From positions 64,001 to 128,000 of the IMG/VR virus record IMGVR_UViG_3300048881_000698: 64,000 bases of DNA. The stretch is one strand, 5' to 3'. A program made the translations under genes and the position numbers. This document shows positions 11,207 to 63,200 of the stretch, piece after piece. Below the pieces are notes generated by a model. That model made no database searches. It was not told the origin of the DNA and saw nothing but the letters and a program-made list of their open reading frames with translations. Position 1 is the first letter of the stretch. Each line of letters begins with the position of its first letter. Origin of the DNA: a virus. Lineage: Duplodnaviria > Caudoviricetes.

Positions 11207-14200
11207 CTAATCGTCAAAAGAAGCTCCTGAATCTGTTATGATGAAATCCAAGGCAATGAATTCAATTGCTTGCGCAGGTTTCAAAAATACCTTGGCATAC
11301 ATAATGTTTCTATCAATCAGTTCTGGGGTTGTTGTAGTCTCATCTAGAACAACCTTAAAATCGGTCAAACCTAGACCGCCCTTGACATTGGAGAGGAACG
11401 TTTCAACCTGGCCTTTAAAGCCATTCCACGTCGCCGAAACGTTCTGTTCGAACAGAGTGGTTGCGGCAATTCGCGAGACTTGCTTCTTGATAAAGATTAA
11501 CAAGCGTCGAACATTGATTCTGTCCAATGCAGATGCTGTTACTTGCAGCGTCTTCTGTCCGAAAATCACAATGCCCTCTGCTGGGAATGTGGCAATAGGA
11601 TTGATATTGGCTGCATAAAGCTTGTCCCTATCATCAGATGAAAGTTGTAGTTTTACACCAGTTACTGGAACTCCAGCTGCTCCAGTAGACAGTCCGCCGC
11701 GAGTAAAGCCTGCAGGAGCAAACCAAAGCTCACGACGGGCTTCACTTGAACCCATTGTGCCTAAGGCGACGACGGAAGACGGAACATATAACAAAGCATT
11801 AGAAATGGTATCTCTAATCTGAACCCATGGAAAGTAAGCACATCCATAACTCGAGTTAATTTGTCGAGCCTTCAGTTTGTTTACCGCCAGAATAACATCC
11901 GGTTTTCTGGCTGATTCTGTTAAGCCAGCTTCCTCACCATCATGCGGAGGCACATAATCTTTCTCGAGATCAATGATAGCTAAAGCATCTCCGCGATCTT
12001 CACAAATACTAATGAGGTGCTCGGTAAGAGCTGGCTGCGTGATTCCGGGCATTACGGCTAAGTTCATCTCTGCTACTTCTGCGTCCCTAACACTGTCAAT
12101 TGCTCTCTTGATAGAGTAGAAAGCATAGTTGTTGGTATCAGAGCCATTAGCAGTAATAAAAGTGTTTCTAAATGGGTCTTTTTCCGTAACATCAAAGCCG
12201 TCGGAGCCTCCGTGGAAAACGGTAGTGAACCGATTGTATCCTAGGCCACTTCCAGTTAACAGCGCACTTGAACCGCTCATAGAAGTAGCGGATCCGCGCA
12301 CCCAGGGCTTAGAATCGTCAACAAGATGTGTCGCTCGTGAACCAGATGTATACGAAGCTCCAATGCTGCCAGACTCGCAAAGATTGTCTAACGAGAAAAC
12401 GTACATGTATTCGAGTTCGGTGGGACTATCGGAAACGTCCGGGCCAAGAGTGCTTATCGGTCGGAGAGTTTCCAAAAGACTGCGGTCTAATTTGGTTGAA
12501 CCACTTTTGGCCAAGTCCACGCCCCAATATTGCATGGAAGGCTTCGGCAAGTTTCCTTGGGTTCCGTGTAATTTTAGAGGGATCTTGGGGAACAAGAACG
12601 AGCCATTTAAACCAGGTGTTGTGAGAATAGCATCGGTATGTGCGATTTTGAGGGCTGCTGTCCGCGGTTCGATTTGATTTTTCGTTGGGTCTATAAAGTG
12701 ACCGTCAGCCAAATCGGTGTCGACTGTAAGCCCGGTTTTGCCGCCAGAGAAGTTGTCGGCCACCGCCACGATAAGCGGCCGGGTCGACGCTAGGGGTGTC
12801 GTCCCGGTTATATTGCCAGCATTCCCGGTAGTAGTCATGGTAAGTGTTATTCTTGTGTCTGTAGTCCCTTCCGCAGCGGTGACGCCAGGAACACCACCAG
12901 TTGCCCCATTTCCCGACGTTGCGGCTGTGACATTAACATTTGTGTCACCATTAATAGCATCAATTATCGCCGCGGTAGCAGCGGCAGAGTCGGCCAGGGC
13001 TTGAATACCAACACCAATCGTACCCGGAGCGTCAACGTCATCACCATCAGTGCTGGTATGGCTAACATAAACCCAGGTGATTGTCCCTGCGCCGCCAGCA
13101 GCCGTAGGTATGGTAAACGAGATGTTGACATTCTCGGCTGCACCGCCGGGGTTGATGTCGTCGCACTCAAGTGCGTCAACCGATGTTGCGGCAACAGCAA
13201 TTTCTGTTCCAGCATCTTTAAGCTTCGGCGGCCCAAAGAAACCAAAGGGAAGTAATCGGTCTTCGACTCCACCAGCGTGAACAGTGTCATTCATCTGCAC
13301 GTAAACATATTTTGACATGTTGGTGTAGTTGCCAAAGTGACGATATCGCCTTTCAGACTCATCCCATTCAATGTACTTGTCACCAATCTTTCTAGCAACA
13401 TAATTTGCAGAGTTTGGATTCAAATCACATGAAGTAAATCTCTCGATAACTTTTGGTGCCTTATCAAGATCATCAATTTTTCTGAGGACTACAGTAAACG
13501 TACCAAAATCACTAAGTTTATTAGTTGATGGTTTGATTGCTTCAATTGATATTTTAACGTTTTTCTGCAACCATTCTCCTTCCTCATGGGCAACAAGTTT
13601 AAACAATTGTTGTTGATTCGCAGGTTTGAAGTTTGCGGGATCTCCCATATCCTGGCTGATAAACCATCCAGTGCGAGCTTTTGATGCTTCCCTCTGTCGG
13701 TCTGCGTATTCTTCGCCCGAAGAACCTTGGTTTGTAAGACCTACAAAAACACCATGAGTAACATCATTTAAACCTGACAAACCTGTACGAGGGGAGCCAC
13801 TTTGACCATAAGTTTCCTCAGCCATTAACGACCTTTCAAACGTTTCTCCCAAGAAATACGTCTTTTGTTCAGATGCAATTGTGATACCTGAATTCGTTAG
13901 AGTTGGGTTTGTGTTAAAAACTTTTCTAATATAGTTATCAGAATTTTCATCAAAATTGAAAACAAATCTTTCCGCTGTGTTGTCGCGGACCGCGTCTTGA
14001 CTGCCTATTTGAGCAGTGAATTCAGCGCCTCTATTGGCAGTGCTCACGGCAATTGGAATACATTGTGATGCAGTTGTGGTGTGTGAAACCGCATCGCCAG
14101 CTAAGTTTGTGTGCTGCGGCGCCTGCTCCATTGTTCCAGACAAAACAATCGCGCCGGATGCGTCATCAGAATAAAATACAGCTCCCAAATTCAATTTTTG

Positions 14201-14665
14201 TTCACCGGTAGATGAGGTGGCCATCAAGAACAGGCCATAGGCGCCGCCTTTATCAGCATTTGCTCCCGTGCCGGCGCCGCCAACGTTGCCCATGTCCCAG
14301 CCGGCGTTGGCAGGCGACGGAGTAGTAGGTGTGTCGCGGTTTGGATGATGATTGCCAAGAAGTCTTACAATTGTAGCAGGGGTGTTGTTTCTTAGCCAAG
14401 CTTGAGCTGCATAGCCTCCATACATTGGAGAGCTATAATTTCCATCTCTAAATACATCGCCGCCTCTTCCACCTGGAACTGGATTTCCAAATAGCTCTAC
14501 ATATTCTGAGAAAGACTTGACCATAACAGGCCTCATTGCGGGGCCACGCTCTGTTCGACCAATAATTACTGGACCGATTTCAGGCCCAACATTTGGCAAC
14601 TGCGAGTTGTCAATTTCTTCTAGAAATATTCCTGGCGAAACAAAATTAAACTTTTTTTCGGACAT
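11207..14665 (-). CDS. gp18: Contractile tail sheath protein (gp18-like) with an in-frame inserted module
   Basis: FVSPGIFLEEIDNS N-terminus; YFPWV, WFAPAGFTRG, INPIATFP, GQKTLQ, LDRINVRRLL, AIEFIALDF. Confidence 0.95.
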   Translation of the reverse strand: MSEKKFNFVSPGIFLEEIDNSQLPNVGPEIGPVIIGRTERGPAMRPVMVKSFSEYVELFGNPVPGGRGGDVFRDGNYSSPMYGGYAAQAWLRNNTPATIVRLLGNHHPNRDTPTTPSPANAGWDMGNVGGAGTGANADKGGAYGLFLMATSSTGEQKLNLGAVFYSDDASGAIVLSGTMEQAPQHTNLAGDAVSHTTTASQCIPIAVSTANRGAEFTAQIGSQDAVRDNTAERFVFNFDENSDNYIRKVFNTNPTLTNSGITIASEQKTYFLGETFERSLMAEETYGQSGSPRTGLSGLNDVTHGVFVGLTNQGSSGEEYADRQREASKARTGWFISQDMGDPANFKPANQQQLFKLVAHEEGEWLQKNVKISIEAIKPSTNKLSDFGTFTVVLRKIDDLDKAPKVIERFTSCDLNPNSANYVARKIGDKYIEWDESERRYRHFGNYTNMSKYVYVQMNDTVHAGGVEDRLLPFGFFGPPKLKDAGTEIAVAATSVDALECDDINPGGAAENVNISFTIPTAAGGAGTITWVYVSHTSTDGDDVDAPGTIGVGIQALADSAAATAAIIDAINGDTNVNVTAATSGNGATGGVPGVTAAEGTTDTRITLTMTTTGNAGNITGTTPLASTRPLIVAVADNFSGGKTGLTVDTDLADGHFIDPTKNQIEPRTAALKIAHTDAILTTPGLNGSFLFPKIPLKLHGTQGNLPKPSMQYWGVDLAKSGSTKLDRSLLETLRPISTLGPDVSDSPTELEYMYVFSLDNLCESGSIGASYTSGSRATHLVDDSKPWVRGSATSMSGSSALLTGSGLGYNRFTTVFHGGSDGFDVTEKDPFRNTFITANGSDTNNYAFYSIKRAIDSVRDAEVAEMNLAVMPGITQPALTEHLISICEDRGDALAIIDLEKDYVPPHDGEEAGLTESARKPDVILAVNKLKARQINSSYGCAYFPWVQIRDTISNALLYVPSSVVALGTMGSSEARRELWFAPAGFTRGGLSTGAAGVPVTGVKLQLSSDDRDKLYAANINPIATFPAEGIVIFGQKTLQVTASALDRINVRRLLIFIKKQVSRIAATTLFEQNVSATWNGFKGQVETFLSNVKGGLGLTDFKVVLDETTTTPELIDRNIMYAKVFLKPAQAIEFIALDFIITDSGASFDD
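12740..13195 (-). repeat. Inserted ATAT...FxGG module in the sheath gene (C-type)
   Basis: VAATSVDAL...IIDAING...GVTAAEG...ITLTMTTTGNAGN...NFSGG aligns by eye with the modules at 56863-57312 and 52633-53061. Confidence 0.7.
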
Positions 14666-14716: not shown

Positions 14717-14740
14717 CGGAAAACTTCTGAAAGGTAAAAA

Positions 14741-37100: not shown

Positions 37101-37344
37101 GGTTTCCTGGGATTACATAAGTGGGAGCAATATCCGCTAAACTCTTAAGAAAATTGGACGCCATCTCGAAATACTCAGGACTCAATTGAGTCTTTGTATG
37201 GGCTAGATCTCCACAATGAATAATGCAGTCTACTTTCTCTTCTCGCAACTTGTCGTATATCTGGTCAAAAATTATACGATATTCATAATGATATTTTAAA
37301 TTACGGATATGCGTATCCGCAATGTGCGCAAACCTCAAATTCAC
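34183..37344 (-). CDS. Fused Mre11/SbcD-Rad50/SbcC recombination nuclease (T4 gp47-gp46 fusion)
   Basis: ADTH, GDLAH, GNHD, LGDIH phosphoesterase motifs, then GKNFSGKSS, coiled coil, GSGSE signature, ILDEP, LISH. Confidence 0.93.
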   Translation of the reverse strand: MNLRFAHIADTHIRNLKYHYEYRIIFDQIYDKLREEKVDCIIHCGDLAHTKTQLSPEYFEMASNFLKSLADIAPTYVIPGNHDGNLRNSSRQDAITPIVEALEHPNLCLLKASGEVVLNDKFTLNVLSVFDEDNWVDSSDKSKINIALYHGSISGVKTDLGWTMEHGENDISIFEEYDFAFLGDIHKTNQALDHEGRIRYPGSTIQQNQGETNDKGLLIWDIRDRDDWDVEHVAFVNPKPFVTVELTPKGRIPNKVKVPNGSRLRLVSNNNLSLDVLKKAVDVAKSKFKPESVTFLNRAYGDRIDIADSIKNIFQENLRDLVVQKRLIEDYLKDYDPSDEVLEKVLELNKKYSSVVEEDEEVARNINWTLKSIEWDNLFNYGEKNKIDFGKLNGVVGIFGKNFSGKSSIIDSLLYAIYNSTSKNNRKNLHLINQTKDDCRAKAKISVDHNIYEIERTSEKYEKKLHGNTTVEAKTDIEFSRYDEVVGENISLNGLSRNDTDRSIRKMFGTMDDFLFTSMASQLGSLMFISEGSTRRKEILAKFLDLEMFERKFKLAKEDATDLRGALKRLEGTEFDEQIEEVNEKLVNVENEIEKQENICKDMVERVDTYQKQVDDVKERINTIPVEMIDINKVEKSLEENQKQKDLLTEKNKKFFENIKIDNELLRKIESFLNDGFDIEEIKNNKSVVVEKQNQLNLITNDIKLYETKLKVKEGKTALLEEVPCGEEYSHCKFIKDAYEALGQLDEVKQDITKLKNAETKTSAEIQEIDPEKIEEHIEKYNKLLEKQSYLNTEISSYELEIQKNKTKIVGFKKEVEQMNEKVAEYNKNKLAIENLEALNFEKDNFLRAMAKEKDNLLVCQDCLIDLSKEHGSVEQMLTNLENGKQELRLLREEFAAYDLFMRCTHSNGIAYDIIKKRLPIINVEIAKVLANIVDFEVFFEAEDKKLEIFIKHPKFDARPIELGSGSEKTIAAMAIRLALLNVSSLPKPDLFILDEPATALDEENMEGFIRILDMVKSYFKTVLLISHLDTLKDCADMTIEIEKKGNFAYVNY

Positions 37345-41106: not shown

Positions 41107-42267
41107 CTAAAAATCTAATCTTACTGTGATAGATAAATCATTATCTGGTGTTTTTTTCAGAGGTTCAGACAGTTTAGAGACCGCTAATAGTTCACCAGCA
41201 GCAGAATATAAACCAACTGTTGTTAAGTAAGATACTGGATTGTCAGCTGTTGAAGTCTTTACTCTAATCGTGCTGCCAGTTAAATATGTCGGATTTGAAC
41301 TATAATTGTATTCATTAGAATTTGCTCGACAAAAATATTTTGTAGAATGTAATTCCACTGTATTGTTAAAATCTATACTCTTAAGTCTATGTCTGAGTTG
41401 ATTAGCCATAGTTTTAATAGTCGAACCGGTCATGAGGGCTCTAATTGAAGTAGAATTTGTTCCGTCCGCATCTCCAACTCCTAATGAGCCAGAAAGAAGA
41501 TTATGTTTATTCTCAGACGGAGATTGCGTAACGCCTCCGGAAGGATACATTAGACAACTAGCAGTAATAACCGCAATGCCTGCCTGATAAAATAATAGGC
41601 CGGCCGCGTTCTTATTACTAGACCCAGATAGGACAGCATATTCACCAGCTGGAGAATCTGTATAATATAAATCTGTTTGCCCTGAAGCAGGAGCTTGTCT
41701 CTTAATCGTTTCGACATCATTAAATCTATCATGATTAAGAAATTTAACCATAGAAGCCGAAGGGGAACCAAGACCAAGCTTCAAAGTAAAAGAGCCTTTT
41801 TTGATTTCGTCTTTCATTAACAAGCGAGAAAAATTAATGAAAAACGCTTCACGAATGGTCTGTCCGGACGGGAGTTTAAACTCTTTAATCGAGCCTGTCT
41901 CATCGTGTCCCATCAATATTTGTGCCATTTCATTATAAATATTAATTTTTTTTGCCTGCTGTACTGGCGTAGGATTTACCAATGACCCCACTCCTGTTAA
42001 AGAATCCGAAGCTGAAAAAGGGGAATTTGCTGAATATCCAAATGTGATATCAAAAAGATGATTCGCAGAAGAGCTTAAGTATGGATAATCATAAATCGAT
42101 TGGAACATGCCATGTGAATAATCTCGAATATTTGTTTGCAAACTTGCATGTGCTGCGTTTGTATATGTACCAGAAACAACAGAGCCTGTAATTGGTATTG
42201 CTTCGTGAAGCAACGTCCTTGTGGTTCTTTTGTCATTGGGTTCGAATATCTTAAGTTGTGTTGCCAT
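41107..42267 (-). CDS. Baseplate/fibre-attachment virion protein
   Basis: KDEIKKGSF, GLLFYQAG, NYSSNPTY, YLTTVGLYSAAGELLAVSKLSEPLKK. Confidence 0.6.
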   Translation of the reverse strand: MATQLKIFEPNDKRTTRTLLHEAIPITGSVVSGTYTNAAHASLQTNIRDYSHGMFQSIYDYPYLSSSANHLFDITFGYSANSPFSASDSLTGVGSLVNPTPVQQAKKINIYNEMAQILMGHDETGSIKEFKLPSGQTIREAFFINFSRLLMKDEIKKGSFTLKLGLGSPSASMVKFLNHDRFNDVETIKRQAPASGQTDLYYTDSPAGEYAVLSGSSNKNAAGLLFYQAGIAVITASCLMYPSGGVTQSPSENKHNLLSGSLGVGDADGTNSTSIRALMTGSTIKTMANQLRHRLKSIDFNNTVELHSTKYFCRANSNEYNYSSNPTYLTGSTIRVKTSTADNPVSYLTTVGLYSAAGELLAVSKLSEPLKKTPDNDLSITVRLDF

Positions 42268-49800: not shown

Positions 49801-50192
49801 TATTCAAACGGCTGAGTTAAACTATTCCAACATATTTCTAACGGGCCCGATGAGTTTGTTTCGTTCATCTGCAGGACTTTGGCTTTATACTCAGCGTGTT
49901 GCTTAGTTTTTATGTAGTAACTGCGATGTGTAATAAACTCCCTGTTTGTCTTGGAGTATATTATATCTTGAAGCGTGGACGTTAAAATATTCTTAGGTAG
50001 TTTTTTAAGTTGTTCTGCTATATCTTGACTAGTACATTGTACGACATGCACTGTGTACGGTGAGATCCAGTGCATGCCTGCAACTTGTGGATTGTCTATT
50101 ACAGCACAAAAATTGATATCAACTGATACCATAGTATCATTAAGACCGCTATCAAGTGTTATCCTTTTAACTTTTATTGAAGGTATCGTCAT
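46887..50192 (-). CDS. Large hypothetical virion protein (about 1100 aa)
   Basis: Long ORF; start moved to the ATG at 50192, which overlaps the upstream TAA. Confidence 0.65.
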   Translation of the reverse strand: MTIPSIKVKRITLDSGLNDTMVSVDINFCAVIDNPQVAGMHWISPYTVHVVQCTSQDIAEQLKKLPKNILTSTLQDIIYSKTNREFITHRSYYIKTKQHAEYKAKVLQMNETNSSGPLEICWNSLTQPFEYEQETLNHLSYIFFPCATAEQAADTSWGTPTIEAVIENGTTVANGVVFYKQNGEVFTETPSYLPDASGAETPYGDGEPLNIVTVPNITIQDTTFLNDFIAEIIDFGENKHRARIRQPAGIFSGLALTRVDDLRQTNRFAFAINFHEIISKVVRYPGLLDNSRIIGLNQLARIREISVIRRRVSSNPNQRSEFRPKKIARIKNEEETNAGDAVPNYELSEQFLREPDREGVVGDVIGSLKEIKIFQSNESLRFFTGTDVKVNSLSGKYEYAASLQVEDLTTAFLQRVTIAIPRLLGIFDNYMTAARAVNARTRKPYWNADTSTFSSDFLSYAATRGFTPDKLFAIISAFVHIYSQISTRSISVYDYAERILRLVHPQWGTKENIYKVRQIMTKVLAGLQRMIAQPNRSKNSAAATETRTGTSSSVVNLNYTMLSYIFDNEYDPEHSRGNGYGYLPIGEPLSPTGLSSISTQDYEALIRNQHNKIFKAGIEEVPIHSECASSSRSPHIHLQGTEGDLVGITGPVDIAGRSVTPLSPRGTKVSANLTNAKTTYLSPLTLKMGDEYFSFDPTNPGFYDIEKYNINFVKILSENIAPGMSEAVKHSDNLHDMLSELYATSNCGFGLRMEDSDHSWSMEDSDFLSYDTHMDSVEHRLGHPELLASLEPEGKGDTPPTPSEFSEWENSWINTVRTATNTSSLFMLLSMLMSENNAEWFEKLLSQTIFNYNNKYNILTKFRTRQTFQELPNHLKALTSIATNREVAQVALNLDFCRLGESSRMHQAWYYENFMNLVEVQMLTGFENNSVNAPNLKRLTQSDLNSIPTGEMRIVSLVKYARNYSGISNTQEMRTPIYNEYFLLEGGARSGAISEPPQLQRSLDQSRSRYSGADGVNPANIDTSKEYAGKHSADGTAPPNKERVKLPPQGTPAKQESPATADEAGAAQAPTPPFRASETSADAPPPPDNAITNYRVTEGDY

Positions 50193-51232
50193 TAACAAGG
50201 TTCTCCGATATCTTCTAGCTTCTTCTTGTATAAGTCTCTTGTACTGTCTGCGTCTGGGCAATCTATTATTCGTACCCCATCAGCTATGAGATTTTTCTTA
50301 TTAACTTCTGTAAGGTTTGCTGCACAAAAATATCTTGATGGTATATCTTCGTCTGCATTTATATCAAAATAGTATTCAACATGATTAGGTGTTGTTTCGA
50401 AGTCTATTTCTGGATCGTAAAAATACAATTGTTGTTGTATCTTTATTTCTCGCCCATTTGAATCTTCTTCTTTTCTGATTATGAAAACTTCAACATCAAA
50501 ATTCTCTTTCCAAAAATCAGCATTATGTTCCAAAACTTCTAAAAGCAGAAAATCTGGTTTTGTCTGTATGACGTTTTTCGGATTTGGTTCACTGTCTTCC
50601 TCTCTATCCAAAATAATACCTAATTCTCTTGGTTCTTCTTCCTCCAATATTAAATTCTTTAAATTGTCAGGTATATAATTTTTGATCAATTCCCCGCTTT
50701 CGTTGGTTTTAGTTAAGTAAGTTTTATAATCAACAACAGAAGACAACTGCGGGACTTGAAAATGCGCTAAACCAGAGCCGGACACATACCCAATAGAACT
50801 TGAGACATTTCCATAAAAATAGTTTACTTCCCATGATGGAGCGTAATTAGAGGCCAAAGAAGATTGCCCTAAAGGTGCGCCTATTGCATATTCGTTTTGT
50901 ACTTGTGGGTAAAGCTCAAACGTTCCCGGGCCGAATAAATTTATTGGATTTCCGTCTTCATCTACTGCGCCCTCGGCTGGTGTCGACTTAGATATGTTTT
51001 CTTCTATTCCAGCAAAAACATATTGTGTATGTGGTCTTGGTGTTTTATTTTTGATTCTACCCTCAGTCGCATTTTGAATTTCGTTAAAACCAGCGTAACC
51101 CGAATCATACAGAACATCATCATCAAAAAAAGCGTAAAAAGTTGGTTTCAGCTTGTTGCGCGCTAGTAAACTTTTACCATATTGGGTTAATTCAATATCG
51201 ATAACTTCTTCTTTTGTGTCAAAAAAGGTCAT
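50192..51232 (-). CDS. Virion structural protein (N-terminus paralogous to 42283-43284)
   Basis: MTFFDTKEEVIDIELTQYGKSLLAR...YAFFDDDVLYD. Confidence 0.6.
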   Translation of the reverse strand: MTFFDTKEEVIDIELTQYGKSLLARNKLKPTFYAFFDDDVLYDSGYAGFNEIQNATEGRIKNKTPRPHTQYVFAGIEENISKSTPAEGAVDEDGNPINLFGPGTFELYPQVQNEYAIGAPLGQSSLASNYAPSWEVNYFYGNVSSSIGYVSGSGLAHFQVPQLSSVVDYKTYLTKTNESGELIKNYIPDNLKNLILEEEEPRELGIILDREEDSEPNPKNVIQTKPDFLLLEVLEHNADFWKENFDVEVFIIRKEEDSNGREIKIQQQLYFYDPEIDFETTPNHVEYYFDINADEDIPSRYFCAANLTEVNKKNLIADGVRIIDCPDADSTRDLYKKKLEDIGEPC

Positions 51233-54200
51233 TGGGGATATCCTCCGCCGTTACTACCAGGGACACCAGGGCCGAATGGCGAGGCGCCGAATTCCGGGAG
51301 ATTGATGAGGGGGGTTTGCCCGGGGAGGGAATCTGATGTTGGTAAGGTAGGCTGTTGTGGCATATTAAAAAGTTCTCCGTCTCCCGTAAGTGCTATGGGT
51401 TTACTCTTCAAAGATAATGATTTTGCAGGATCAAATTCAAATTCAGCTTTAATATCAGCCAATTCAACTAACGAAAAGAAATCATAAGGCCAATTATAAT
51501 TATAATCTGGTTTCTTTTTTGAACCGCCAAGTTTAAACTCAAACGCAAAACGACTATCATCCTCTGAATCGGCGGTTACATTATAATAACTCATCTCAGC
51601 TCTTTTCTTGATTTTAAATACCATCCATTGGATATCTTTTGGTATTTTAAATCCTCCAAAAAACTCGTTTGAATCTAGATTGTGACCAACTACCACTTCT
51701 TGTTCTATTGCACTTCTTGCTATTTTGGGCATTAAATTTTGCCAAATATGGGACAGATCTTCTTTATCAAGTTCATGAGTAAATTCAAACACATAAATTA
51801 CAAACGGATTTATCGTTGAATTTTGTCTCATAAAATCCATATGCGGCGGTAAATAATAATTTTTAAGCTTAGCAACCATTTCTTTAATAGATTTACCAGG
51901 AAGCAACATATCTTTGCCAAGTTCTTGTTTTTTTGTTCCCATAGCTATGTCAAAAAGTACTTTATCAATAGTAAAAAAGTGTCTTTTGCTATTTTTTATG
52001 ACAAAAGGTACCGCAACAATGGCTTCAGAAATTAGCTTTTTATCAGCTAATTCGCCAATTCTTTCCTTCTCTGGTTTAAATCCACAAACTTTAAGCAATG
52101 AACGCGTGGCTGTCCCGGGGACGATGCCGCCGGCGTTAACAGAATCTGTTATTGCGGCCTCATCAAGCTTATCTGGAAAGCTCTCCCTCAGTGAAAGCCA
52201 AAGACCAGAATTAACAGAAGGAATTTCACCATAACCTCCCCACATCGCCCTTGTCCCGATTGAAGCTGTGATTCCATTCACCCATTGATCAGTAGTTAAC
52301 AAGCCCTGATCTGCTCTTTGCTCGACTAAGCTTTTAGCACTACTGCCTGAAAAATTCAAAGTCGGACATTCAAACTTAGGGCTAATCGTCCATACATCAA
52401 ATGCTGGATCTCCGGTGTCAGTTGCTTTAGTGGGTTTAAAACTCTCACCCCCACCATTTGAATCGGTTTCATATTCTATAGTTTTCAATCTAGTTTTACC
52501 AAACAAATTCATAGATGAAGAAAGTCTCATGCGATAGCGGCCGGCGGGGTAAAGATCTCTTTGTGCCGCATCCAAAAGTTTAGAAATGTACCGGCCGGAG
52601 CCGCACAAGCGACCATTATTGGCATTGGAGTTTCCTCCAAAAAGTTTACCAGAGCTAAGCTGATCTGTATCAACTATATTGCTGCCAACAGTCTGTATGA
52701 ATTCGATTTCATTTCCATGTTCGTTGGTATACCAGGCAGATATACTGATTTTAGGAGACGTGCCAGTAAGAGCAGTTATGCCAAGAATACCCCAATCCTC
52801 ACCAGACGTAACTCCGGCGCCATATTTCGCTACGGACGAATCATCGGTACCATTTATTGCTAAAATTAAACGGTCTCGTGGTTCAGTACCACTGCCTGCG
52901 CCATGGTACCAAATCTCGTTGGTGTCAGGAGTCCCAGAAGTGGTATTTTTCATAATAACTGTGACGGTGGTGCCCGTTCCGCCGGCTTTCATCGGAACGT
53001 TGACTGTAAATGCGTCCGCGTAGGCGGCGCTGCTTACGTCGAGGACATCGATTGCTGAAGGATATAAGCCTACTACAGGAATACCTGGTTTATTTTCGAG
53101 ATCATCTGTTGAGTGGCCGCTTCCGGTGAAAGTGGTCTCCACCATGGCACTAGCTACAATTTCATCAAGAGAGAAAGTTCTTACTTCACCTGGTGACATA
53201 ATGCTAGCAGAATGTGGAGAAAATGTAATTCTAGCAATTGCGTCTTGGTAAAAATGTGGGGGAGTGAATGGCGCAAAAGCAGGATCGCTGAAGTTTGCAG
53301 AGGCATCATATTTCGCGGAGGTTCCATCATTATTTCCATCAGGGAAAAAACGTGCGCGAGAATTAGACGTCGAATCAGGTGTCACTTGACATGGAGGGCC
53401 ATAAAGACAGCCTCTAATGTCCCATAGTATGGGCTTATTATCTGCTTGTAGCATCTGAATTCTTCTTGGCCCCTCTGACATGACAAAGTCATGAGTTTGT
53501 TTGAGGACAACATCCATATAATATATTGAACCGGATTCCATAGCCTTGAATTTACTTTGTGGGGCTGAAGCAAACGTTTTAAAGCTTTCATCCTTTAGGA
53601 AAAATCTCGGAATTTCCCCCAAAAAGTTTTGCATAGCTAGTGCATATTTATGATCATTTATACCGTGATAATCCCACCATGGGCCTCTTGGGATCGAACC
53701 AGACCTGTTCCACGCATAGAACATTGTTTTTGCCCCATCAGATTGAGACAAAGGAAGATGCCTATGGGGTTCAACTAATGCCTCGAAGGGCATTCTCCAA
53801 TTAAATAATTTTCCGTCTGCAGCAGTACCGGACAAATAGCTAGCATTGTACCCTGGGTATCCGGCAGCGGCAGGTTGGGTGCCAAGGTGAGAAGATGTTA
53901 CCATGGGCCAGTCAACAGCTACGCCACTTTTAACTGTGTTATACAAGATACCAGGAGCAAAAAATGGCTGCATCATTGCTGCTATTTGTCCACCATGGGA
54001 CGTCCCTGTTGTTCCGTGCGGAGTGTCTGCGGTTGAAAGAAGTGCGGCGTGAGAACCACTGATATAAGGAGCGAAAGAGCTAGAAAACATACTTCCAAGT
54101 TGTACGCTTCTAAGAACAGGATAAAATCCTTGATATGGGAGAAGCTTCTTAATCCCATGACATTTCAAAGTTATTTTTGTGAGTCCAGTGAGATTTTCAT

Positions 54201-57200
54201 GATCATCAGAGATCTTTCCGTAATATTTCATAAAATCAGAATGAGAATACACTTTGAAAAAATCATCTTTATAATCACTTTTTTCAGAATCAGCACTAGC
54301 AGATAATTCTGGATATGCACCCTCTAAAGTTAAAAACTTATTGTTAACAACAAACCCATTATCAATATAATAGCTCATGTTTTCAGAGATTCTAAATTCT
54401 GGTATGATTGTGTGATCTTTTGCCATGCATCTAATTTCTTGAGCATAATCTTCATATGAATTATACCATGGTTTAATTCCTGAAAGTTCATCTGTTCTAT
54501 AAAAATCATGAAGTGCTGCGTCCCATGGTCTGTACCAAACAAGCCTAGTGCTTAAGGTATAATATTGACTACTAAGACCTCCCGGATAACAGTATTGTTG
54601 CGAAGCTGTGGCCGCGGCGACCATCGGTGTGGCGGTGGTACCTAATCGAAAACCCTCAATAGAAGCATAAATCGATGGCGCATGTAATGCCATGAGTTCT
54701 CCTGCAAGATATGTGGCTTCATTAAACTTTTCTTTACCATTAAGACGAGGACTGGAGCCTCCATCCAAGGGCCAAATACTAAGAGATGGTAACATATAAG
54801 CAAAAGTAGAATCATGATCAGGAGTGCCCTCGCCTGCATGAGGCCAAGTGCCGCCCGGGGCTGGAGAGGAGCGCATATCCTGAATAAAGCCTAGTGAATT
54901 TGTTACTGATTGTTGTGATCCGCCGCGGCGAGCCGTTGGGGCATCTTTCCAGAAAGTTCTTTGAAACCCAATTTTTTTATTTGTCCAAATTCCCTTTTCG
55001 CGTTGCGAAGAAGAAACTTCCGTATAATCTCCGCGTTGGCGTGTTTTAGCTAAATACGTAAATTTTTCTTTTGGGTATATTTTTTCTCTATAAGTTAATT
55101 TAATTAATCCTGTTTCTTTATTTTTAATTGATTTGGTTAATTTATCATATACTACTTTGTTCTTGCCAGGTTTAACTATCTGTAGGTTTTCATTTAATTT
55201 TTCATAAGGTGTATAACTTAAAAGATTTCCATAAGAATGCTTAAGTACCATAGTGTTAACTTGGCCATTTTCATCAACACCAGCAACTGTGTGAACCATG
55301 GGCAAATATCTATTTGTTATTGGGGGGGAAATATAAGATTTTATAGCCGTTTTAAACATTGCTTTATTAAGCCTGTTCTTATCTTTTTCGGGATTAGACC
55401 AAAAAGAATTCACATAATAAGACTTATTTCTATTATCAGCATCCTTGTCTGCTTGGGTATATTTTATTTCTTCATATTCAATATATTGTATAATATTCTT
55501 ACTTCTGTTGTATCTCGCAACTGGATGGTCTCCTGCTCTAACCTGTTTCCAAGATGGGTACCCATATGGGCCTTGACGATGTAAAATGAGTGCGTTTAAA
55601 ATGGTTCCTTCGCCACCTGAGTCTGCGGTGGTGTTCGAATAAACCGGATAAATAGCCCAGCCATGGCTCGGGCTGTCGACAGTGGATTTTGCAACTGAAT
55701 TTAGATAATTAACATCACTAAAATTAGGATCATACCAGGAAACTTCCATGGAAGGGAATCCCAAAGTATTGATGCTGGCCGTATCATAATTGCGACCATC
55801 GGCTCCAAAAGAAGATGTGATGGGTTCATATATATTTAAATTCATTCCAGCAAAATCTACTGGTATCCTTTGAACAAAAGTCGATCCACCAACAGATCCT
55901 TCTCTTTCACCAGTTTGGTACCATGGTTGAGACCAATAACGTAAGTCGGAGTCGGCGCTGACAAAACTGCAAACCTCACTTCTACTAATAAACGTGAGAG
56001 CTTCGACATATGGAGTAGCTACGCTTCCTAAGTTAAGAGAAGCTTTAACTTTTCCATCGTAACCTAGTCTAGTTGATTGAACTCCTAACGGATCTCGCCT
56101 CAAAAAAGCAGAAGCTGTAATCCACGCATACTGTAAATCATTTCTTGGGATTGAATGCCGAACGTAAGCGTTATCATAAGTAGAGGCGGTGACAACAGTA
56201 TATGAAGCGCCATCATTTGTCGACGTTAACTCTAATCTTTTAAGCCGATTCCGATGAACTTTATGATATGCAGCTTTGGTCTGATAGTCATGCTCTCGCG
56301 CGCCTTTGCCGCCTCCGGTAAAGCTTACTACGGTCATGCCAGGTCCTGCTTCGGAGCCGCCCAGAGTAATATCCGTATTGCCAGCTGTTCCACCGGTGTT
56401 CTGCGTTATGGTTACAGTGGCGGAACTGTCGTTGGTTGCAGTGAGATCATCGTGGAGATTGAGAACGGTGGCTATGTGTCCGGCTTGAGTGATGTTATTA
56501 GCTGATCCGCCACTCGCAGTGTCGCCGGCAGAGAAAGTCCCGAGCAATGATTCACCGGTGGTATCAGACATGTCGTTGGTGTCTGCGTGAGCGGTGATTG
56601 TCACTGTATCTCCAGCAGTTGTGACAATTGATATGGTATCCTCGGCGTCGGGGTCAGCGAGTATTTGACCAGCGTCTGTAATCGTTATTGTTGCAGTGGC
56701 GGATGGAGAGTGAAGAGGAGAAATACCAAATTTTCCTGAATGTCTTGCAAGAAGAACATTCAAGCCAGCAAAGTCTTCCCCAACATGATTTGAAGTAGTT
56801 ACATGCTGTACAACGTGTACAGGAATATTCATTCTGTAATCATTTATTTTAAGCTTTTCTTTGCCGCCAGTAAGCTTATTGTCAGTAAGTTGATCTGTAT
56901 CAACTATATTGCTGCCAACAGTCTGTATGACTTCAATGTCGTTTCCATCGGCGGTGGCGGTAGAAGCAATAAGGGTAATCGGGTTCGTAGCCGTGCCTAC
57001 GGCGGCTGTTAAACCTTTGATACCGACGCCAACGACATTAGCGTCTGTAAGCGTGTCAGCTCCATTTCCATATTTCGCTACGGACGAATCGTCAGTACCA
57101 TTTATTGCTAAAATTAAACGGTCTCGTGGTTCAGTACTACTGCCTGCGCCATGGTACCAAATCTCGTTAGCGTCAGGAGTCCCAGAAGTGGTATTTTTCA

Positions 57201-60200
57201 TAATAACCGTGACGGTAGTGCCCGTTCCGCTGGCATCAGAAGGAACATTGACTGTAAATGCGTCCGCGTAGCCGGCGCTGCTTACGTCGAGGACATCTAT
57301 TGCTGTGGCTTTTTCGCCATCTGCCCTAGAAGTCACAGGTGTGTTTCCAAATGGAGTTGTTGCTCCGCGCCACTCACGGACACTAGATGCTACAGTCCCG
57401 CTACTGTTAAGCTGAAAATGGTAGCGCCATGGCAAAGCATTGTAAGCGCTATATTCTTCTGCTGCAGGGTCTAGATATCCCCTAGTCATTGTGGTAAAAT
57501 CTCCAGGTGAAGAAAACCGGTTAACAATCAAAAATTCATCTTTTGGCCGTACTGGAAGAGAAAAATCAATATTGATTCCATCAGTTTGTGTTCCTTCCAA
57601 CCGCAAAGATGGGTTCTCAGAAGCTGACTGTGCTGTAGTGTAATTTTCTCGAAGCCATTTATTATTATAAGTTCTGCCTGACGTTTGAAGGAAATCATAG
57701 TTGTGCTGATAGTTTCCTATTTGATTACCAGTAGTTGTTGCCCCTTCTATAGAACCGGTTGAAAGCCTAACATATTTGGTACTTACTGGCCTTTTTGTGT
57801 CCTCGCTTATAAACACTCTAGGCAAGGCCATATCTATAGTTCCGTTTAAATTTGAATCTGGTGGATATATTTTCACATCTTTGTGGACCACGCCGCCTGC
57901 AAAATTTACTACGGTCATGCCAGGTCCTGCTTCGGAGCCGCCCAGAGTAATATCCGTATTACCGGCTGGGCCGGCAGTTTTCTGCGTTATGGTTACAGTG
58001 GCGGAGCTGTCGTTGGTCGCAGTGAGGTCATCGTGGAGATTGAGAACGGTGGCTATGTGTCCGGCTTGAGTGATGTTATTAGCTGATCCGCCACTCGCAG
58101 TATCGCCAGCAGAGAAAGTTCCGAGCAATGATTCACCAGTGGTATCAGACATGGCGTTGGTGTCTGCGTGAGCGGTGATTGTCACTGTATCTCCAGCAGT
58201 TGTGACAACCGATATGGTATCCTCGGCGCCGGGGTCAGCGAGTACTTGACCAGCGTCTGTAATCGTTATTGTTGCAGTGGCGGATACAAACGGCCTTAAG
58301 TCACTGGCTTGTGTGTCAGCCTCAAACCTAAACTTTTCAGGTCTATCTCTAATGGTATCGAATTCGCCTGTAGATTTTGGTTGTATGTTCAAATCAACTT
58401 TTCTATGGATGGAACCGCCTGACCACTTTTGCGTTGTGTGGCCCTGTAAAGATGTGTTAAGGACTGTAGGTCCAAAATCTTTATGTAAATTACCAAAGTT
58501 GATGTCTGAGTCTCCTGTACCATGCTGATATATACTAACGATAGTGGGGAGGGTACCCTTCGCGCTTCCATAATCAGATGATTTATCGGCGTTGTTTTCT
58601 ATTTCAAACAAAAGTCTAGTCTTGTGTCCCGATCTGAGAATATTGTAGGATGGATCAAACTGGGGGCGGGCACGATCATATGGCCTGTCCTCTTCGGCAA
58701 GATGAGAAGTGCCGGCTTTAATAGTTATGTATTTTTGTATACTAGGGGGATTTATTGTACCATCTGGTCTAAGGCTTTGGGGAAATTCTCTTATCGTATG
58801 TTCTGCCGAATTATCCCCTGATCTTAATGAGGTCGCAACTCTTGCTCTAAATCTATATTGACTTTGTCCTCTTGGAGTGGGAAACTGAGAGTTTAAACGT
58901 CTTATTCCTGTATTTGTGTGAACCGGTTTTGTTGAATTAAATATTCTTCGTCTAGACTCATCAACTGCAGCGTCTCCAGAAGACTGTTCTTCTATCTCGT
59001 CTGCACCCAACGTTCTCCACCACGCGCGACTATTCGCTTGTGTTTTGGAGCTTCCCTGCATTGCTGGCGCAAATTTATTCTTTTCATCTTCTTCACGGGG
59101 CGCTGAATTTCCTCGTTCACCTTTCGCGGCAGCTTCGGCCCAAGCCGAATTGCCCTCAATGCGGCCTTCAGGTTGGGCAGACGCCAAAAGACCCATATTC
59201 CTATCTTCAATCGTGGGATATTTATTAGCATATTTATTTCTTTCTAAAATATGACTCTCGACGACTGTCCTTAACTTATTTGAAAAAGCTGCTGATGCAG
59301 GAAAAAGCTGTTCAAGTATATCATTAACAGCCTCGTCAATCCATTTATAATATTCAATATATTTGTCTAAATCTGGAGTATTCCTAACTTTTTGGAAAAA
59401 CATATGTCTTATTTTCGCCATCCTCTTGTAAGAAAGACGATATCGATTTTGCGGCTCTCCGATCAAGTTATTGAAATCTTTAATTGTTGCAAAGAAATTC
59501 AACATTTCTTCAGAAACGGTGCGATACATACTTTTTTCTGCAGCAAAGTAAAAACTTTCTGGCCTTGTATCACTTTCAAAATGAATATCATCGCTACTAA
59601 GCACTTTAATCATGTCAGAGCTGTTAAGGTGCTCGGGTAAAAGTTGTCTTGCAGTACTTATGTATTCTATGTCCGCAACATCTGTGTTTGATATTGGAAA
59701 GTCATAGCCCAAGCCAGTGTGGCGATACCCAGTAATAGCTCCAATCGGACCAAAATCGTTTTGTTTTCTTACAGCACTTCCATCGGAAGTAGTAAAATGT
59801 ATAGACCCGGAAGAGAAGTCGGAGACCTTAAATTCACCACTTGAATCTGAGCCCGTCACTTGATTAAAGTCCCAATGAAGAGCAAGAGTGTCCATTTGTG
59901 GTATGAATCCAAGTGAACTTGTAAGAACTAAACCGCCTGCTGAATCGGCCGGGAAATCCTCAGCTACATACGCAGCTTCAAAAAGATGAGCACTTTCATA
60001 TGGGTGCTCTGTTCCAAAATTTAACACGTCTCTCGCATGTGCATCGATAACATTGTTTGGAAGATAATCCATCCACACTCTTGCTGAGCCTACTTTGATG
60101 TCAGAAGTTTGCAACACTGTTCCGGAAAAGTCAGTCCTATGAGCCCCAACAAAAATTCTTTTTGATTTGTTAAGAAAGGCATCGCCAGCAACTTTTGTCA

Positions 60201-63200
60201 AAGAAGCTGTTAACAAAAAACTATTTTGTTTTATATCGGCTGCCGTATTGACGCCATAAAACTCAACATTGTAAGACGGCTGAACCGCGGGAGCTGTTGG
60301 AGAAGTTTCTAAGTAACTTCCGCTGATTCCTGGCGACCATGGATAATTTTCAGGCCTAATCTTTATCGCAAAATCCCATTTTTCGTTGTCATAGACATTA
60401 TAAAACAAAGAACTAGATAATTCTGGCATAAAGCCGCCGGCAGAACCGGTTAAAATAAACTTAACGTTGGTAGAGTCTTCTTTATCTCTAGCTGCGAAAA
60501 TCTGAAAATTTGCTAGATTGTCTTTTGACCACCCAAGATTTTGCGCGGGATAAGTACCGCCAAAGCTTGTCGCTGTAATTCCTCCGTTGATTGTTAATGC
60601 GTCGGCATCGCCGGCCTCAACGGCGGGGATTGTTGTATTTGCCGCGGGAGAGCCAGCAGCGACGCTCATTTGTGAGACTGTTATCGTATCGTTTGTGTTG
60701 GTGACAGTGCTGATTGTTGTAGTTAGTTTACCTGCGTGCCCATTAGCAGACTCAATAGCCTCTTTGAATTGTGCTGTATATGCGCTAATTGTACTGTAAC
60801 CTGCCAATTGAATGTGAGTATAGCCATAACCAGTGCCACCTGTGCTTTGTGGCCCAGCTCTATAAATTGCATACTCGACAGACGTGCCATCAGCTGATAC
60901 AAGCGTAAATCGCATTGAACCATCGTTCCCATAATCAGTTATTGTGTCCGACAGCAGTTTCATTGATGCAGTTGAATCTTGTATCGCTCTTTTTGCCGAA
61001 TGCACGCCTCCAATTGAAGATGATAAGCCTGGATAAGGATAGGCAAATTTAGAAAATGTACTTTTTGTTTTTGGGAACAAAGTCCCATATTCAAAAGTTA
61101 TTCCTACTCCTCGCTCTTTAAATGGTGTGACCACATCAACTGCGGTATCATCAGTGCCGCCAGACTCTTCATATGAACCAGCTGACCCAGATATATAAGA
61201 TATTGAATTTGTTATATCTTCATCCTGAAACTGAAATACGCATGCACTATTTCTAGACGGATGATTAAAATCTATGTATTTCTTCTTTGTATCTGTATAT
61301 CTTACCTTTTCTTCAAATTTATAACTAACGTTGTTGCCATAAATATTCAAGTTGATTAGTTCGTCATCTACACCAAAACACCTAACAAGATTTCGAAAAG
61401 ATTTTTCAGTACCCTTTGTTTTGGCAATATATGATAAATTATTATAAATGTTTTGATAAATTAGATTCTTGACTTTGTGTAAAGAATTTTCAAATAGGAC
61501 TTTTTCACCTCGATCCAAAAATTCCTCAAACACACTTGAGTTGACAAATAGATCAGGAGTTACAATACCAACATTTTCTAACAATCGGTTGCTAAAGGGT
61601 ATCGGTTCATGGCTGCCACTAGTATAAATTGGTTCTTTAATGTTTGGCAACTCTTTTATCTGTACTGCTAATGTGTCAAAATAGCTTGCCATAATTTGAG
61701 TTAATTTAACAAGCTCTGAGCCATTTTTATCATCTTCAGAAGTTATCCATTCCGGGAGACTTCTATAAATCGCACCATTATTTGTATAATCATGTTCTCG
61801 TCCGACGCCAGTTTTTTCTTCTAAGAGTGCTTTAACTTTGGGATGAGATGGATATATAATTGGATCTTTAAATTCCGTTACAGAAGCACTTGATTCTACG
61901 ATAGCAGAGCCAGTATTTCTGGAATTTGAAGTATACCCTTTCCAATAACCATTCGAGAGCCTTCCGGAATAATCTAAAACTCTTTCATCGGCAGAGGTTT
62001 TTCCAGTAATGCCTTCATTAAATTTAAAATAAACTCCTAAATCAGTATTTGCATCATCAACATTTGCGCCGCCGCCGACTTGACTACGATAAAATCTACC
62101 AATTTCTTCTGCATTTCTTCTCGCTTTCCAATATCTGAACTCGTCAATTGAACCTGAAAGTTTTCCATAACCAGCAGGTTCGGCGCCGGTGATCGTTCTG
62201 AACGCACCGAGCATACCCAGCATAGATCCAGAATTTGAACATTGCGCAGGAATAACCTCATTTATGATCCCAGTGCCGCCAGTAAATCTTGTCTCCCCAA
62301 CGTCCTCATTTATTGTTAACGCATCTTCATCGGCTCCTGTAATGGCAGGGATTGCTGTGTTTCCGTCCCGGCCTTTTGTAACTTGTGTAATCGTAATCGT
62401 ATCGTTTGTGTTGGTGACAGTACTGATTGTTGCAGTTAGTTTGCCTGCGTGCCCATTAGCAGACTCAATAGCCTCTTTGAATTGTGCTGTATATGCGCTA
62501 ATTGTACTGTAACCTGCCAATTGAATGTGAGTATAGCCATAACCAGTGCCGCCGGTGCTTTGTGGTCCAGCTCTATAAATTGCATACTCGACAGACGTAC
62601 CATCAGCTGATACAAGTGTGAACCGCATAGAGCCGTCGGTTCCGTAAGCGACGCTTTCATCGTTCTTAAGCGTCATTGTTGCTGTAGCTGCATCGTTAAT
62701 TGATTGTTTCTCTCTGAATGACCCATCAAAATATAGCTCTGTTTCCATCGCGGTTCCACTGTTCTTCAATGTTAAAGCATAATGATGCCACTTATTATCA
62801 ATCATCTCTGAATTTGTAAGAGATGTGTAGAGGGCGGAGCCTGTCACAGAACCTGATTGGTAAAATAAGAAAAGCGGGGTTGCTGTGTCAGAGGTATCTG
62901 CCGTCAAAAGGTCCACGACTAATCTACCGTAATGTTTATCGGCGGATGGGCTGCCGTTCCACAGGTCGAATATGCACTCTTCTGCGGTTTCATTTTCGTC
63001 ATCTGCTAAAGCTTCTTTTTTCATCCAAAATTCAACTGTTAAGCCATGACTAGCACTATATTGTAAATTAGATTGTCTATGTTTAGTCTTATCATAAACA
63101 TTTGCTCCATAAGAGCCGGAATATCTGTGCTTGATATCAGGAAATATTTTTTTAATATCTTTGTTATTAGGATCCTTATGTGGGCCGCCTTCGAAAGAAA

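What the first reader, a model, noticed from the sequence alone, without database searches (positions are those of the whole stretch)
12740..62691. A mobile in-frame 'plug-in' domain inserted eight times into three unrelated virion proteins
Seen: a 131-152 aa module with shared termini and core. It starts A-T-A-T-like, has an amphipathic 'AIN/AIE' helix, then (T/I)-I-T-x-x-x-x-x-G-x-x-G-N, and ends F/L-x-G-G. It occurs once in the sheath (12740-13195), once in the 658-aa baseplate protein (39380-39790), and six times in the 4138-aa protein (62275-62691, 60556-60975, 57892-58284, 56863-57312, 56311-56703, 52633-53061). The copies are dispersed, not tandem, and interrupt host folds. A1 sits inside a LamG domain. 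The 658-aa copy follows NPTY, where its paralogue (41107-42267) has no insert. The sheath copy belongs to the same subtype as C1/C2, so modules have moved between genes. The modules look GC-richer than their flanks. Known: the pattern resembles the outer beta-sandwich domain of Mu gpL-type sheaths and the flagellin 'IN' motif. Such domains have adjacent N- and C-termini and so tolerate loop insertion. Inference: a family of virion-surface display cassettes that spread by copy-and-paste into permissive loops, either selfish or for adhesion/shielding. This is analogous to phage Ig-like domains but a different fold and inserted internally.
Basis: partly seen in the sequence, partly recalled or inferred. 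Interest (0 to 1): 0.88.

Follow-up and report, generated by a model that had tools for sequence, protein, structure and literature searches.

The report
Shuffled insertion domain decorating phage tail proteins
A compact 115-155-residue protein domain, absent from the family databases checked, is spliced in frame into loops of the sheath, baseplate and a giant tail protein of a probably marine T4-like phage; related phages carry it at other sites or not at all, so it is a new example of the known habit of phages of shuffling decoration domains among virion proteins.

Summary
All eight modules lie in frame at the stated coordinates. The 185-kb phage genome has two more just outside the window: a third A-type copy in a 667-aa baseplate-region protein, and a divergent partial copy in a 928-aa fibre-like protein.

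The copies form one homologous family in two clades, A+B+658-type and C+sheath-type. Deep profile-profile comparison links them (93 %, E 3e-7); shuffled controls fail.

AlphaFold gives a confident alpha/beta fold (pLDDT 94.5). Its best solved matches are middling: the insertion domains of simple tail sheaths (Z 8.3, 7.6) and FliD D2/D3 (Z 7.3).

No match in Pfam, NCBIfam or PHROGs. Only 47 of 1.84 billion representative proteins match.

Orthologues show precise empty sites in all four host proteins that could be compared. Different subtypes sit at one sheath site. Three other proteins, including the window's 386-aa and 346-aa proteins, are filled elsewhere. A module tree needs at least 38 host switches.

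dN/dS of 0.11-0.40 argues for a working protein domain. I found no inverted repeats and no intein termini.

Verdict: an undescribed promiscuous decoration domain spread by recombination. It is a new member of a known kind (Ig-like domains, lactococcal-phage CBMs). Its function and mode of transfer are untested.

The parts
11207..14665 (-). Tail sheath gene (1152 aa), host of one module
   Evidence: Pfam Phage_sheath_1C E 4e-8 and phrog_23 E 5e-66. 80 related sheath loci were retrieved.
12740..13195 (-). Sheath module (clade II, C/sheath type), sheath aa 491-642
   Evidence: In frame. Clade-II profile E 9e-32. The site is empty in L011 and filled with other subtypes in L008, L009 and L013.
39104..41080 (-). 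658-aa baseplate-region protein, host of one module
   Evidence: ORF. Orthologues L002-L007 are 412-437 aa and lack q422-588. The L107 orthologue is 413 aa and has nothing after NPTY.
39380..39790 (-). 658-type module (clade I), aa 431-567
   Evidence: In frame. Reached from an A-only profile at iteration 2. Sister to a module in a 667-aa-protein orthologue, P0030, with SH-aLRT 99.
41107..42267 (-). 386-aa paralogue of the 658-aa protein; an empty allele here
   Evidence: Paralogous C-terminus, E 2e-8. Orthologues are filled at two or three nearby sites: P0006 (A type), P0036 (B type), P0039 (clade II), L105/L106 and L093/L103.
50192..51232 (-). 346-aa protein downstream of the giant gene; an empty allele here
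   Evidence: Its orthologue P0040 (520 aa) carries a clade-II module between the two halves that align to it.
51229..63645 (-). 4138-aa giant tail/baseplate protein, host of six modules
   Evidence: Single ORF. Orthologues of 2331-3230 aa carry modules at other positions.
62275..62691 (-). Module A1 (clade I), aa 319-457, inside a LamG domain
   Evidence: The site is empty in L088, L094, L095, L096, L099 and L100. Laminin_G_3 is unbroken there in the three orthologues scanned (L088, L096, L099).
60556..60975 (-). Module A2 (clade I), aa 891-1030
   Evidence: 93 % nucleotide identity to A1 over a 255-nt core and 86 % to A3. The site is empty in L088 and P0020.
57892..58284 (-). Module B1 (clade I), aa 1788-1918
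   Evidence: 93.7 % nucleotide identity to B2, ending at the borders.
56863..57312 (-). Module C1 (clade II), aa 2112-2261
   Evidence: 80 % nucleotide identity to C2. Clade-II profile E 6e-40.
56311..56703 (-). Module B2 (clade I), aa 2315-2445
52633..53061 (-). Module C2 (clade II), aa 3529-3671

Best explanation
The modules are copies of one self-folding alpha/beta insertion domain, 115-155 aa long. Its order of elements is three or four strands, one long helix, then more strands. The fold class matches the insertion domain of simple tail sheaths and FliD D2/D3.

The chain appears to enter by the A-T-A-T strand and leave by F-x-G-G at nearly the same point. The domain can therefore sit in a surface loop of a folded host protein without breaking that fold.

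In a clade of T4-like myophages known almost entirely from metagenomes (some of them marine), this domain has been repeatedly duplicated, swapped and newly inserted. The hosts include sheath, baseplate-region proteins, the giant protein and fibre-like proteins.

The likely route is ordinary phage recombination. This would be gene conversion or homologous exchange between existing copies, possibly helped by the conserved ~12-nt ends (GCN-ACN-GCN-AC... and TTY-ACN-GGC-GG). Rare illegitimate in-frame insertions into tolerant loops would then be kept by selection.

The domain is maintained for what the protein does. I take the most likely role to be many weakly binding outward-facing knobs that help the tail adhere to host or particle surface glycans. 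The second most likely role is lateral bracing of the tail lattice.

Shown here: one family, the fold class, sharp borders, empty and filled alleles, host switching, and purifying selection. Inferred: surface exposure, the adhesion role, and the recombination route.
For: Family and fold:
- AF2 with a 40-sequence alignment gives pLDDT 94.5 and pTM 0.90.
- The best solved matches are sheath insertion domains (A-1(L) residues 93-185, Z 8.3, rmsd 2.6 over 93; Mu, Z 7.6) and FliD D2/D3 (Z 7.3).
- The ESM Atlas gives TM 0.78-0.81 to viral hypothetical proteins and 0.61-0.67 to sheath, gp13-like, FlgE_D2 and FliD clusters.
- BFVD gives 9 hits at E<1e-3, one annotated 'Baseplate protein J-like'.
- A published precedent reports that the XM1 sheath insertion domain resembles FliD D3 (PMC10457771).

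Homology of the types.

Discreteness: DNA identity between copies ends at the borders, and the flanks are unrelated.

Presence/absence and replacement. At one sheath site the alleles are empty, clade II, short clade I and long clade I.

Host switching: the tree needs 38 label changes. Clades with SH-aLRT of 95 or more mix host proteins. Examples are {A1, A2 of the giant; A3 of the 667-aa protein; P0006 of the 386-aa orthologue} and {B1, B2; P0036}.

Selection: dN/dS is 0.11-0.40 among paralogous copies.

Termini must be close: in L011 the host chain runs straight through the site with no spare residues.

Decoration role: relatives have what look like complete small proteins made of one or more modules between short conserved ends, and tandem arrays (P0045, P0053, P0016, P0025).
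Against: - No experiment or host-protein model here shows that the modules face outwards or bind anything.
- The structural Z scores (7-8) are in the range this tool calls middling.
- Foldseek against the PDB gave nothing below E 0.01.
- No target-site duplication or clear microhomology could be read at the one well-matched filled/empty junction, because the hosts are too diverged.
- Synonymous sites between the window and the best-matched relative are saturated (pS 0.64-0.81). Recent transfer between phages therefore cannot be shown. The higher identity of modules than of hosts may reflect only tighter constraint.
- The GC3 excess is strong in this genome but weak in relatives (+0.03), and it is unexplained.
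Confidence: 0.72

Rival explanations
1. Vertical descent with differential loss. The ancestor's tail proteins already carried modules at all these sites, and lineages have only lost them. Nothing moved between genes.
For: Most orthologues are empty (47 of 59 sheaths), as frequent loss would give. Synonymous sites are saturated, so no recent transfer can be shown directly.
Against: - More than ten sites in at least seven proteins compared here (plus a gp13-like Atlas cluster) would all have to be ancestral.
- One sheath site holds modules of both deep clades in hosts 66-81 % identical.
- The 667-aa-protein site holds A-type modules in some phages and a C-type module in P0031.
- Well-supported module clades mix host proteins, and the window's A3 is nearer to A1/A2 of another gene than to same-site modules of relatives.
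- Intragenomic copies share 80-94 % DNA identity with sharp borders.
Confidence: 0.07
2. A selfish in-frame mobile element. The module DNA would spread by its own copy-and-paste mechanism, as Rickettsia palindromic elements or homing elements do. The encoded peptide would be tolerated rather than useful.
For: Promiscuous insertion into many unrelated genes, even inside a LamG domain. Conserved short DNA ends. GC3 above host level in this genome.
Against: - dN/dS of 0.11-0.40 and a confidently predicted compact fold with conserved motifs point to selection on the protein.
- There are no terminal inverted repeats and no shared flanking sequence.
- No Pfam, NCBIfam or PHROG family, enzymatic or otherwise, matched the module sequences.
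- The ends are A-T-A-T and F-x-G-G followed by varied residues, which are not intein splice junctions.
- All copies sit in tail genes rather than across the genome.
Confidence: 0.08
3. Same family and same shuffling, but the role is structural. The modules would contact each other or neighbouring subunits and brace the sheath and baseplate lattice, rather than bind the host.
For: The matched domains in solved sheaths lie on the outside of the tail lattice, and extra sheath domains have been proposed to stabilise the tail (PMC9230969). The modules occur in parts that are near one another in a T4-like tail (sheath, wedge-region proteins).
Against: Most orthologous tails do without them. Subtypes are interchangeable at one site. 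Free-standing multi-module proteins exist. This is more typical of accessory adhesins than of lattice parts. Nothing here tests either role.
Confidence: 0.25

Closest known systems
Insertion domain (InD) of simple contractile-tail sheath proteins (phage XM1, Mu gpL, cyanophage A-1(L)) and FliD D2/D3 head domains
   Same: Best structural matches: Z 8.3, 7.6 and 7.3 over 93-104 residues. These too are alpha/beta knobs inserted in a parent domain with both chain ends at one point. The XM1 InD has already been likened to FliD D3 (PMC10457771). In 8 relatives the module sits near the N-terminal part of the sheath, where the InD lies. There is a weak sequence hint to phrog_165 positions 113-196 (E 0.05).
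   Different: No significant sequence match to any sheath or FliD family. Here the domain is not fixed to the sheath. It also occurs in baseplate-region, giant, fibre-like and free-standing proteins, and it comes and goes between close relatives.
Ig-like domains on tailed phages (Fraser et al. 2006, cited in PMC9230969; from my own knowledge of that paper)
   Same: Accessory domains found on many kinds of virion protein, exchanged horizontally, dispensable for assembly, and proposed to bind surface carbohydrates weakly (as quoted in PMC9230969).
   Different: A different fold: alpha/beta with a long helix, not an all-beta sandwich. No Ig-type Pfam hit. Inserted inside host folds, whereas Ig-like domains sit mostly at termini (my recollection of Fraser et al.).
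Carbohydrate-binding modules decorating lactococcal 936-group siphophage virions, including 'evolved Dit' (PMC6669499)
   Same: CBMs have been identified in several different virion proteins of lactococcal and streptococcal siphophages, including Dit, Tal and the neck passage structure (abstracts listed). 'Evolved' Dit proteins carry CBMs that other Dit proteins lack. That the CBM is inserted internally is from my own knowledge.
   Different: A different phage type, host and fold. Binding is established for some of those CBMs, and nothing is known for this module.
Rickettsia palindromic elements and inteins (in-frame selfish insertions; from my own knowledge)
   Same: Insertions that keep the host reading frame and land in many unrelated genes.
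   Different: No palindromic or inverted ends, no intein junction residues, and strong purifying selection on a folded domain.

Membership tests
Sheath insertion domain / FliD D2-D3-like fold | Three-dimensional similarity of the whole domain to solved examples | tested here: inconclusive
   VIA-align gives Z 8.3 (8kee_A 93-185, rmsd 2.6, 93 aligned), 7.6 (Mu), 7.3 (FliD) and 6.2 (flagellin), covering model residues 1-139. The theme is consistent across more than 15 top rows, but Z is in the range the tool calls middling. Foldseek against the PDB gives E 0.013 or worse.
Sheath insertion domain / FliD D2-D3-like fold | The domain is an insertion whose two chain ends meet at the parent domain | tested here: met
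   Empty orthologues run straight through the site with no spare residues, for example L011 ...PKPKDV|TGLK.... The same holds for the 523-aa L088 orthologue of the 667-aa protein.
Sheath insertion domain / FliD D2-D3-like fold | Sequence-profile relationship to sheath or FliD families | tested here: inconclusive
   Only phrog_165 (tail sheath) positions 113-196 at E 0.05, for the sheath module. No Pfam sheath or FliD model hits the modules.
Flagellin_IN motif (PF07196) | Match to the Pfam model | tested here: not met
   No hit at E up to 10 for any of nine modules. The only link is structural and indirect: an Atlas FliD cluster in which 18 % of members carry Flagellin_IN, TM 0.61.
Phage Ig-like decoration domains | All-beta immunoglobulin sandwich; Big/Ig/FN3 Pfam models | tested here: not met
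   The model has a 12-residue helix packed on a sheet. No Ig-type family appears.
Inteins | Cys/Ser/Thr at the first residue, His-Asn at the end, and a nucleophile at +1 | tested here: not met
   The modules start A/S/T-A-T-A and end F/L-x-G-G, followed by D, T, V, G, K, N or S.
Baseplate_J (gp6/gpJ/gp47) domain | Match to PF04865 or to a solved member | tested here: inconclusive
   The module profile hits Mu gp47 residues 125-182 at E 0.003. Shared elements are I-T-V-T..A-G-x-A-G-N and F-S-G-G-A-D. PF04865 finds nothing in this genome. Three BFVD matches are annotated Baseplate J-like, one at E below 0.001.
In-frame selfish repeats (RPE-like) | Palindromic or inverted-repeat DNA ends, with no constraint on the peptide | tested here: not met
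   No inverted repeats at module borders. dN/dS is 0.11-0.40.

The most novel reading that the evidence does not exclude
The module would be a domain-sized mobile genetic unit with a dedicated, repeatable way of pasting itself in frame into new genes. One possibility is recombination templated by its conserved 12-nt ends, perhaps aided by a phage recombinase. In that reading its spread, its GC3 excess and its insertion even into a LamG core reflect drive as much as benefit. It would be a protein-coding counterpart of a transposon that carries no enzyme of its own.
Probability: 0.1. Interest if true: 0.9.

Novelty: new member of a known kind. Interest (0 to 1): 0.6.

Why it matters
The finding defines a domain family that the Pfam, NCBIfam and PHROGs libraries used here do not recognise, and places it in a fold class. 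It shows unusually clearly, with natural filled and empty alleles, which loops of a contractile-tail sheath, a LamG domain and several baseplate-region proteins tolerate a 140-residue insert. That is a ready-made map of display sites for phage engineering.

It also offers a way to ask what accessory tail decorations do for ocean phages. In addition, it links sheath insertion domains, flagellar cap and hook outer domains, and possibly a Baseplate_J element into one pool of reusable knobs.

The behaviour itself, promiscuous decoration domains on virions, is already known from Ig-like domains and lactococcal-phage CBMs.

Tried and rejected
- **First AF2 run.** With only the nine own copies it gave pLDDT 47. 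It was replaced by a 40-sequence alignment.
- **Searches that gave little.** The search for related loci with the mixed alignment failed for lack of a conserved stretch. The search for homologous proteins with the module alignment gave only 5 hits, because low-complexity words swamped the candidate list.
- **Contaminated profile.** The first iterative profile picked up a bacterial repeat protein (P0009) and a junk repeat (P0038). These were removed and the work was redone.
- **Shallow hhalign.** Comparison between types was weak, at 22-86 % and partly over short stretches. Only the deep profiles were decisive.
- **Junction repeats.** I looked for a target-site duplication or microhomology at the window/L011 sheath junction and found nothing readable.
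- **Recent transfer.** The window against P0006's contig could not test this, because synonymous sites are saturated.
- **GC3 as a family property.** It is not general in relatives.
- **Sequence and feature searches.** The giant protein has no PDB sequence match. The Atlas feature search of C1 gave only unnamed viral clusters. PF04865 finds nothing in the genome.
- **Earlier notes of this scan.** The look-up returned nothing that bears on the finding beyond a duplicate of it.

Full report
**Setting.** The window is bases 64001-128000 of a 185,278-bp virus record with 40.5 % GC. Nearly all long ORFs lie on the minus strand. The 1152-aa ORF at 11207-14665 is a tail sheath (Pfam Phage_sheath_1C, phrog_23). 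Its nearest named relative is the sheath of Microcystis phage Mel-JY01, at 31 % identity. Upstream of the giant gene lie a gp25-like protein (Pfam GPW_gp25) and a 595-aa ORF with no Pfam match. The region therefore looks like the tail and baseplate block of a distant T4-like myophage. Related contigs include Tara Oceans scaffolds.

**The observation.** Every coordinate pair in the finding is in frame with its host ORF and yields a 131-152-aa module. An HMM built from the eight finds these eight in the genome's six frames. It also finds a ninth copy (type A, "A3") in the 667-aa gene just upstream of the giant gene, 1.2 kb beyond the window's end. A cleaned profile finds a tenth, divergent and partial copy in a 928-aa fibre-like protein upstream of the window (E 4.8e-7).
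- Within types, DNA identity is 80-94 % and ends at the module borders; the flanks are unrelated.

**One family.** Between types, identity is only 20-31 % and the composition is biased (Thr 17 %, Ala 13 %, Gly 12.5 %), so I tested homology with care.
- Profiles seeded with type A alone reach B and then the 658-type. Profiles seeded with B reach A and the 658-type. C and the sheath type form a second cluster that stays apart at E 1e-5.
- Deep profiles of the two clusters (67 and 31 sequences) align over 98 collinear columns at 93 % probability, E 2.9e-7. Reversed or column-shuffled controls give below 1 %.
- The family therefore has two deep clades: I (A, B, 658-type) and II (C, sheath type).

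**Fold.** With 40 diverse sequences AlphaFold2 gives pLDDT 94.5 and pTM 0.90. The order of elements is strand 3-8, short helix, strands 23-27, 33-39 and 53-57, helix 64-75, strands 85-91 and 97-103, then short terminal strands.
- The exhaustive structural search puts sheath insertion domains on top: cyanophage A-1(L) residues 93-185 at Z 8.3 and Mu at Z 7.6. FliD D2/D3 follows at Z 7.3, then a domain of T7-like nozzle proteins and flagellin D2/D3.
- The tool warns that Z 7-8 is middling. The consistency of the theme is the argument, not any single score.
- Predicted-structure libraries agree. The Atlas gives TM 0.78-0.81 to viral hypotheticals and 0.61-0.67 to sheath, gp13-like, FlgE_D2 and FliD clusters. 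BFVD hits include Baseplate J-like proteins.
- The XM1 paper had already noted that a sheath insertion domain resembles FliD D3 (PMC10457771).
- By sequence the family is unrecorded. There is no Pfam, NCBIfam or PHROG match. Only 47 of 1.84 billion representative proteins reach E 1e-3.
- A marginal sequence hit to Mu baseplate gp47 (E 0.003) shares I-T-V-T..A-G-x-A-G-N and F-S-G-G-A-D. I treat it as a lead only.

**Filled and empty sites.** This is the core of the case.
- *Sheath.* The closest full-length orthologue compared, L011 (72-81 %), reads ...PKPKDV|TGLK... and lacks residues 485-643. L008, L009 and L013 carry a long clade I, a short clade I and a clade II module at the same point. Of 59 distinct full-length orthologues, 47 have no module, 8 have one at another site near residue 155, and 4 have one at the window's site.
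- *658-aa protein.* Six orthologues of 412-437 aa have about 11 residues where the window has 166. The L091 orthologue instead has two tandem A-type modules near residue 95. A syntenic relative (L107) has the 386-aa orthologue filled and the 658-aa orthologue empty, the reverse of the window.
- *386-aa paralogue.* It is empty in the window. It is filled with A, B or clade II modules at two or three nearby sites in P0006, P0036, P0039, L105/L106 and L093/L103.
- *667-aa protein.* A 523-aa orthologue is empty at almost exactly the module's position. Others hold A-type modules, and P0031 holds a C-type module at about the same place.
- *Giant protein.* The A1 site is empty in six orthologues, and Laminin_G_3 is unbroken across it in the three scanned (L088, L096, L099). 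This confirms that A1 splits a LamG domain. The A2 site is empty in L088 and P0020, which carry modules elsewhere.
- *346-aa protein.* The window's copy has a filled orthologue, P0040.
- *Other architectures.* Relatives also have collagen-like fibre proteins, tandem arrays, half-modules, and small free-standing proteins made of modules.

**Movement between genes.** A maximum-likelihood tree of 98 modules needs at least 38 changes of host-protein label. Branches with SH-aLRT of 95 or more unite modules from different hosts. Examples are A1/A2 (giant) with A3 (667-aa) and P0006 (386-aa orthologue); B1/B2 with P0036; and the window's 658-type with a module of a 667-aa orthologue. The alignment is short and many forks are open, so only the starred clades are used.

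**Selection and composition.** dN/dS among the paralogous copies is 0.11-0.40, so the peptide matters. Module GC is 49.9 % against 40.5 % for the hosts. Amino-acid make-up predicts 45.9 %, and the remainder is a GC3 excess (0.43 against 0.32). In relatives the excess averages only +0.03. I leave it unexplained. Acquisition from GC-richer relatives and biased gene conversion are both possible.

**Mechanism.** I found no inverted repeats, no shared flanks and no intein junctions, and no match to any known protein family in the module. Nothing I checked points to autonomous mobility. The simplest account has three parts: recombination between copies (the A1/A2 core at 93 % with more diverged ends looks like conversion), exchange among co-infecting relatives, and rare in-frame illegitimate insertions filtered by selection. 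A junction signature could not be read, and recent transfer could not be dated.

**Function** is inferred by analogy with sheath insertion domains, Ig-like domains and lactococcal-phage CBMs (PMC9230969, PMC6669499). I favour outward-facing accessory knobs, with weak multivalent adhesion as the first guess and lattice bracing as the second.

**Verdict.** The thing is a new domain family behaving in a known way. It is of real use to phage structural biology and engineering, but it is not a new principle.

Noticed in passing
outside the window: genome 128809-129225 (L001:1809-2225, minus strand), in the 667-aa ORF L001:648-2651: Ninth module (A3), 83-88 % identical in protein to A1/A2. Its host is a 667-aa protein between a 595-aa ORF and the giant gene.
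   Followed up: yes
outside the window: genome 49322-52105 (minus strand), 928-aa ORF, residues 532-641: Tenth, divergent and apparently partial module (E 4.8e-7 with the cleaned clade-I profile), in a protein with fibre-like repeats.
   Followed up: partly
window 34183-37344 (minus strand): 1053-aa ORF that joins a calcineurin-like phosphoesterase (Mre11-like) domain to AAA_23/SMC_N (Rad50/SbcC-like) in one polypeptide. A syntenic 1051-aa gene is present in a relative.
   Followed up: no
L036:944-3946 and L036:3988-6984: One related viral contig carries two full-length sheath genes in tandem (1001 and 999 aa). Both are homologous to the window's sheath and neither has a module.
   Followed up: no
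P0045, P0053, P0042, P0052, P0016, P0025 (metagenomic proteins): Small proteins of about 200-400 aa that begin with Met and look complete. They consist of one to several modules between a short conserved N-terminal piece and a C-terminal ...VPF.L...R.R..AYK tail. They are possible free-standing decoration proteins, and no counterpart was found in this genome.
   Followed up: partly
P0007, P0008, P0024, P0025, P0043: N-terminal halves (profile 1-63) and C-terminal halves (60-141) of the module occur on their own or in arrays. The domain may therefore be built from two exchangeable sub-units.
   Followed up: no
sheath orthologues L041-L043, L058, L071: These sheaths have 130-295-aa inserts near residue 150 that the module profiles do not recognise. 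Other cassette families may use the same hot spot.
   Followed up: no
window 12740-13195, 39380-39790, 56311-56703, 57892-58284: The sheath, 658-type and B modules have GC3 of 0.47-0.50 against 0.30-0.39 in their hosts. The A copies are near host level, at 0.34-0.38 against 0.28-0.30. The cause is unknown.
   Followed up: partly
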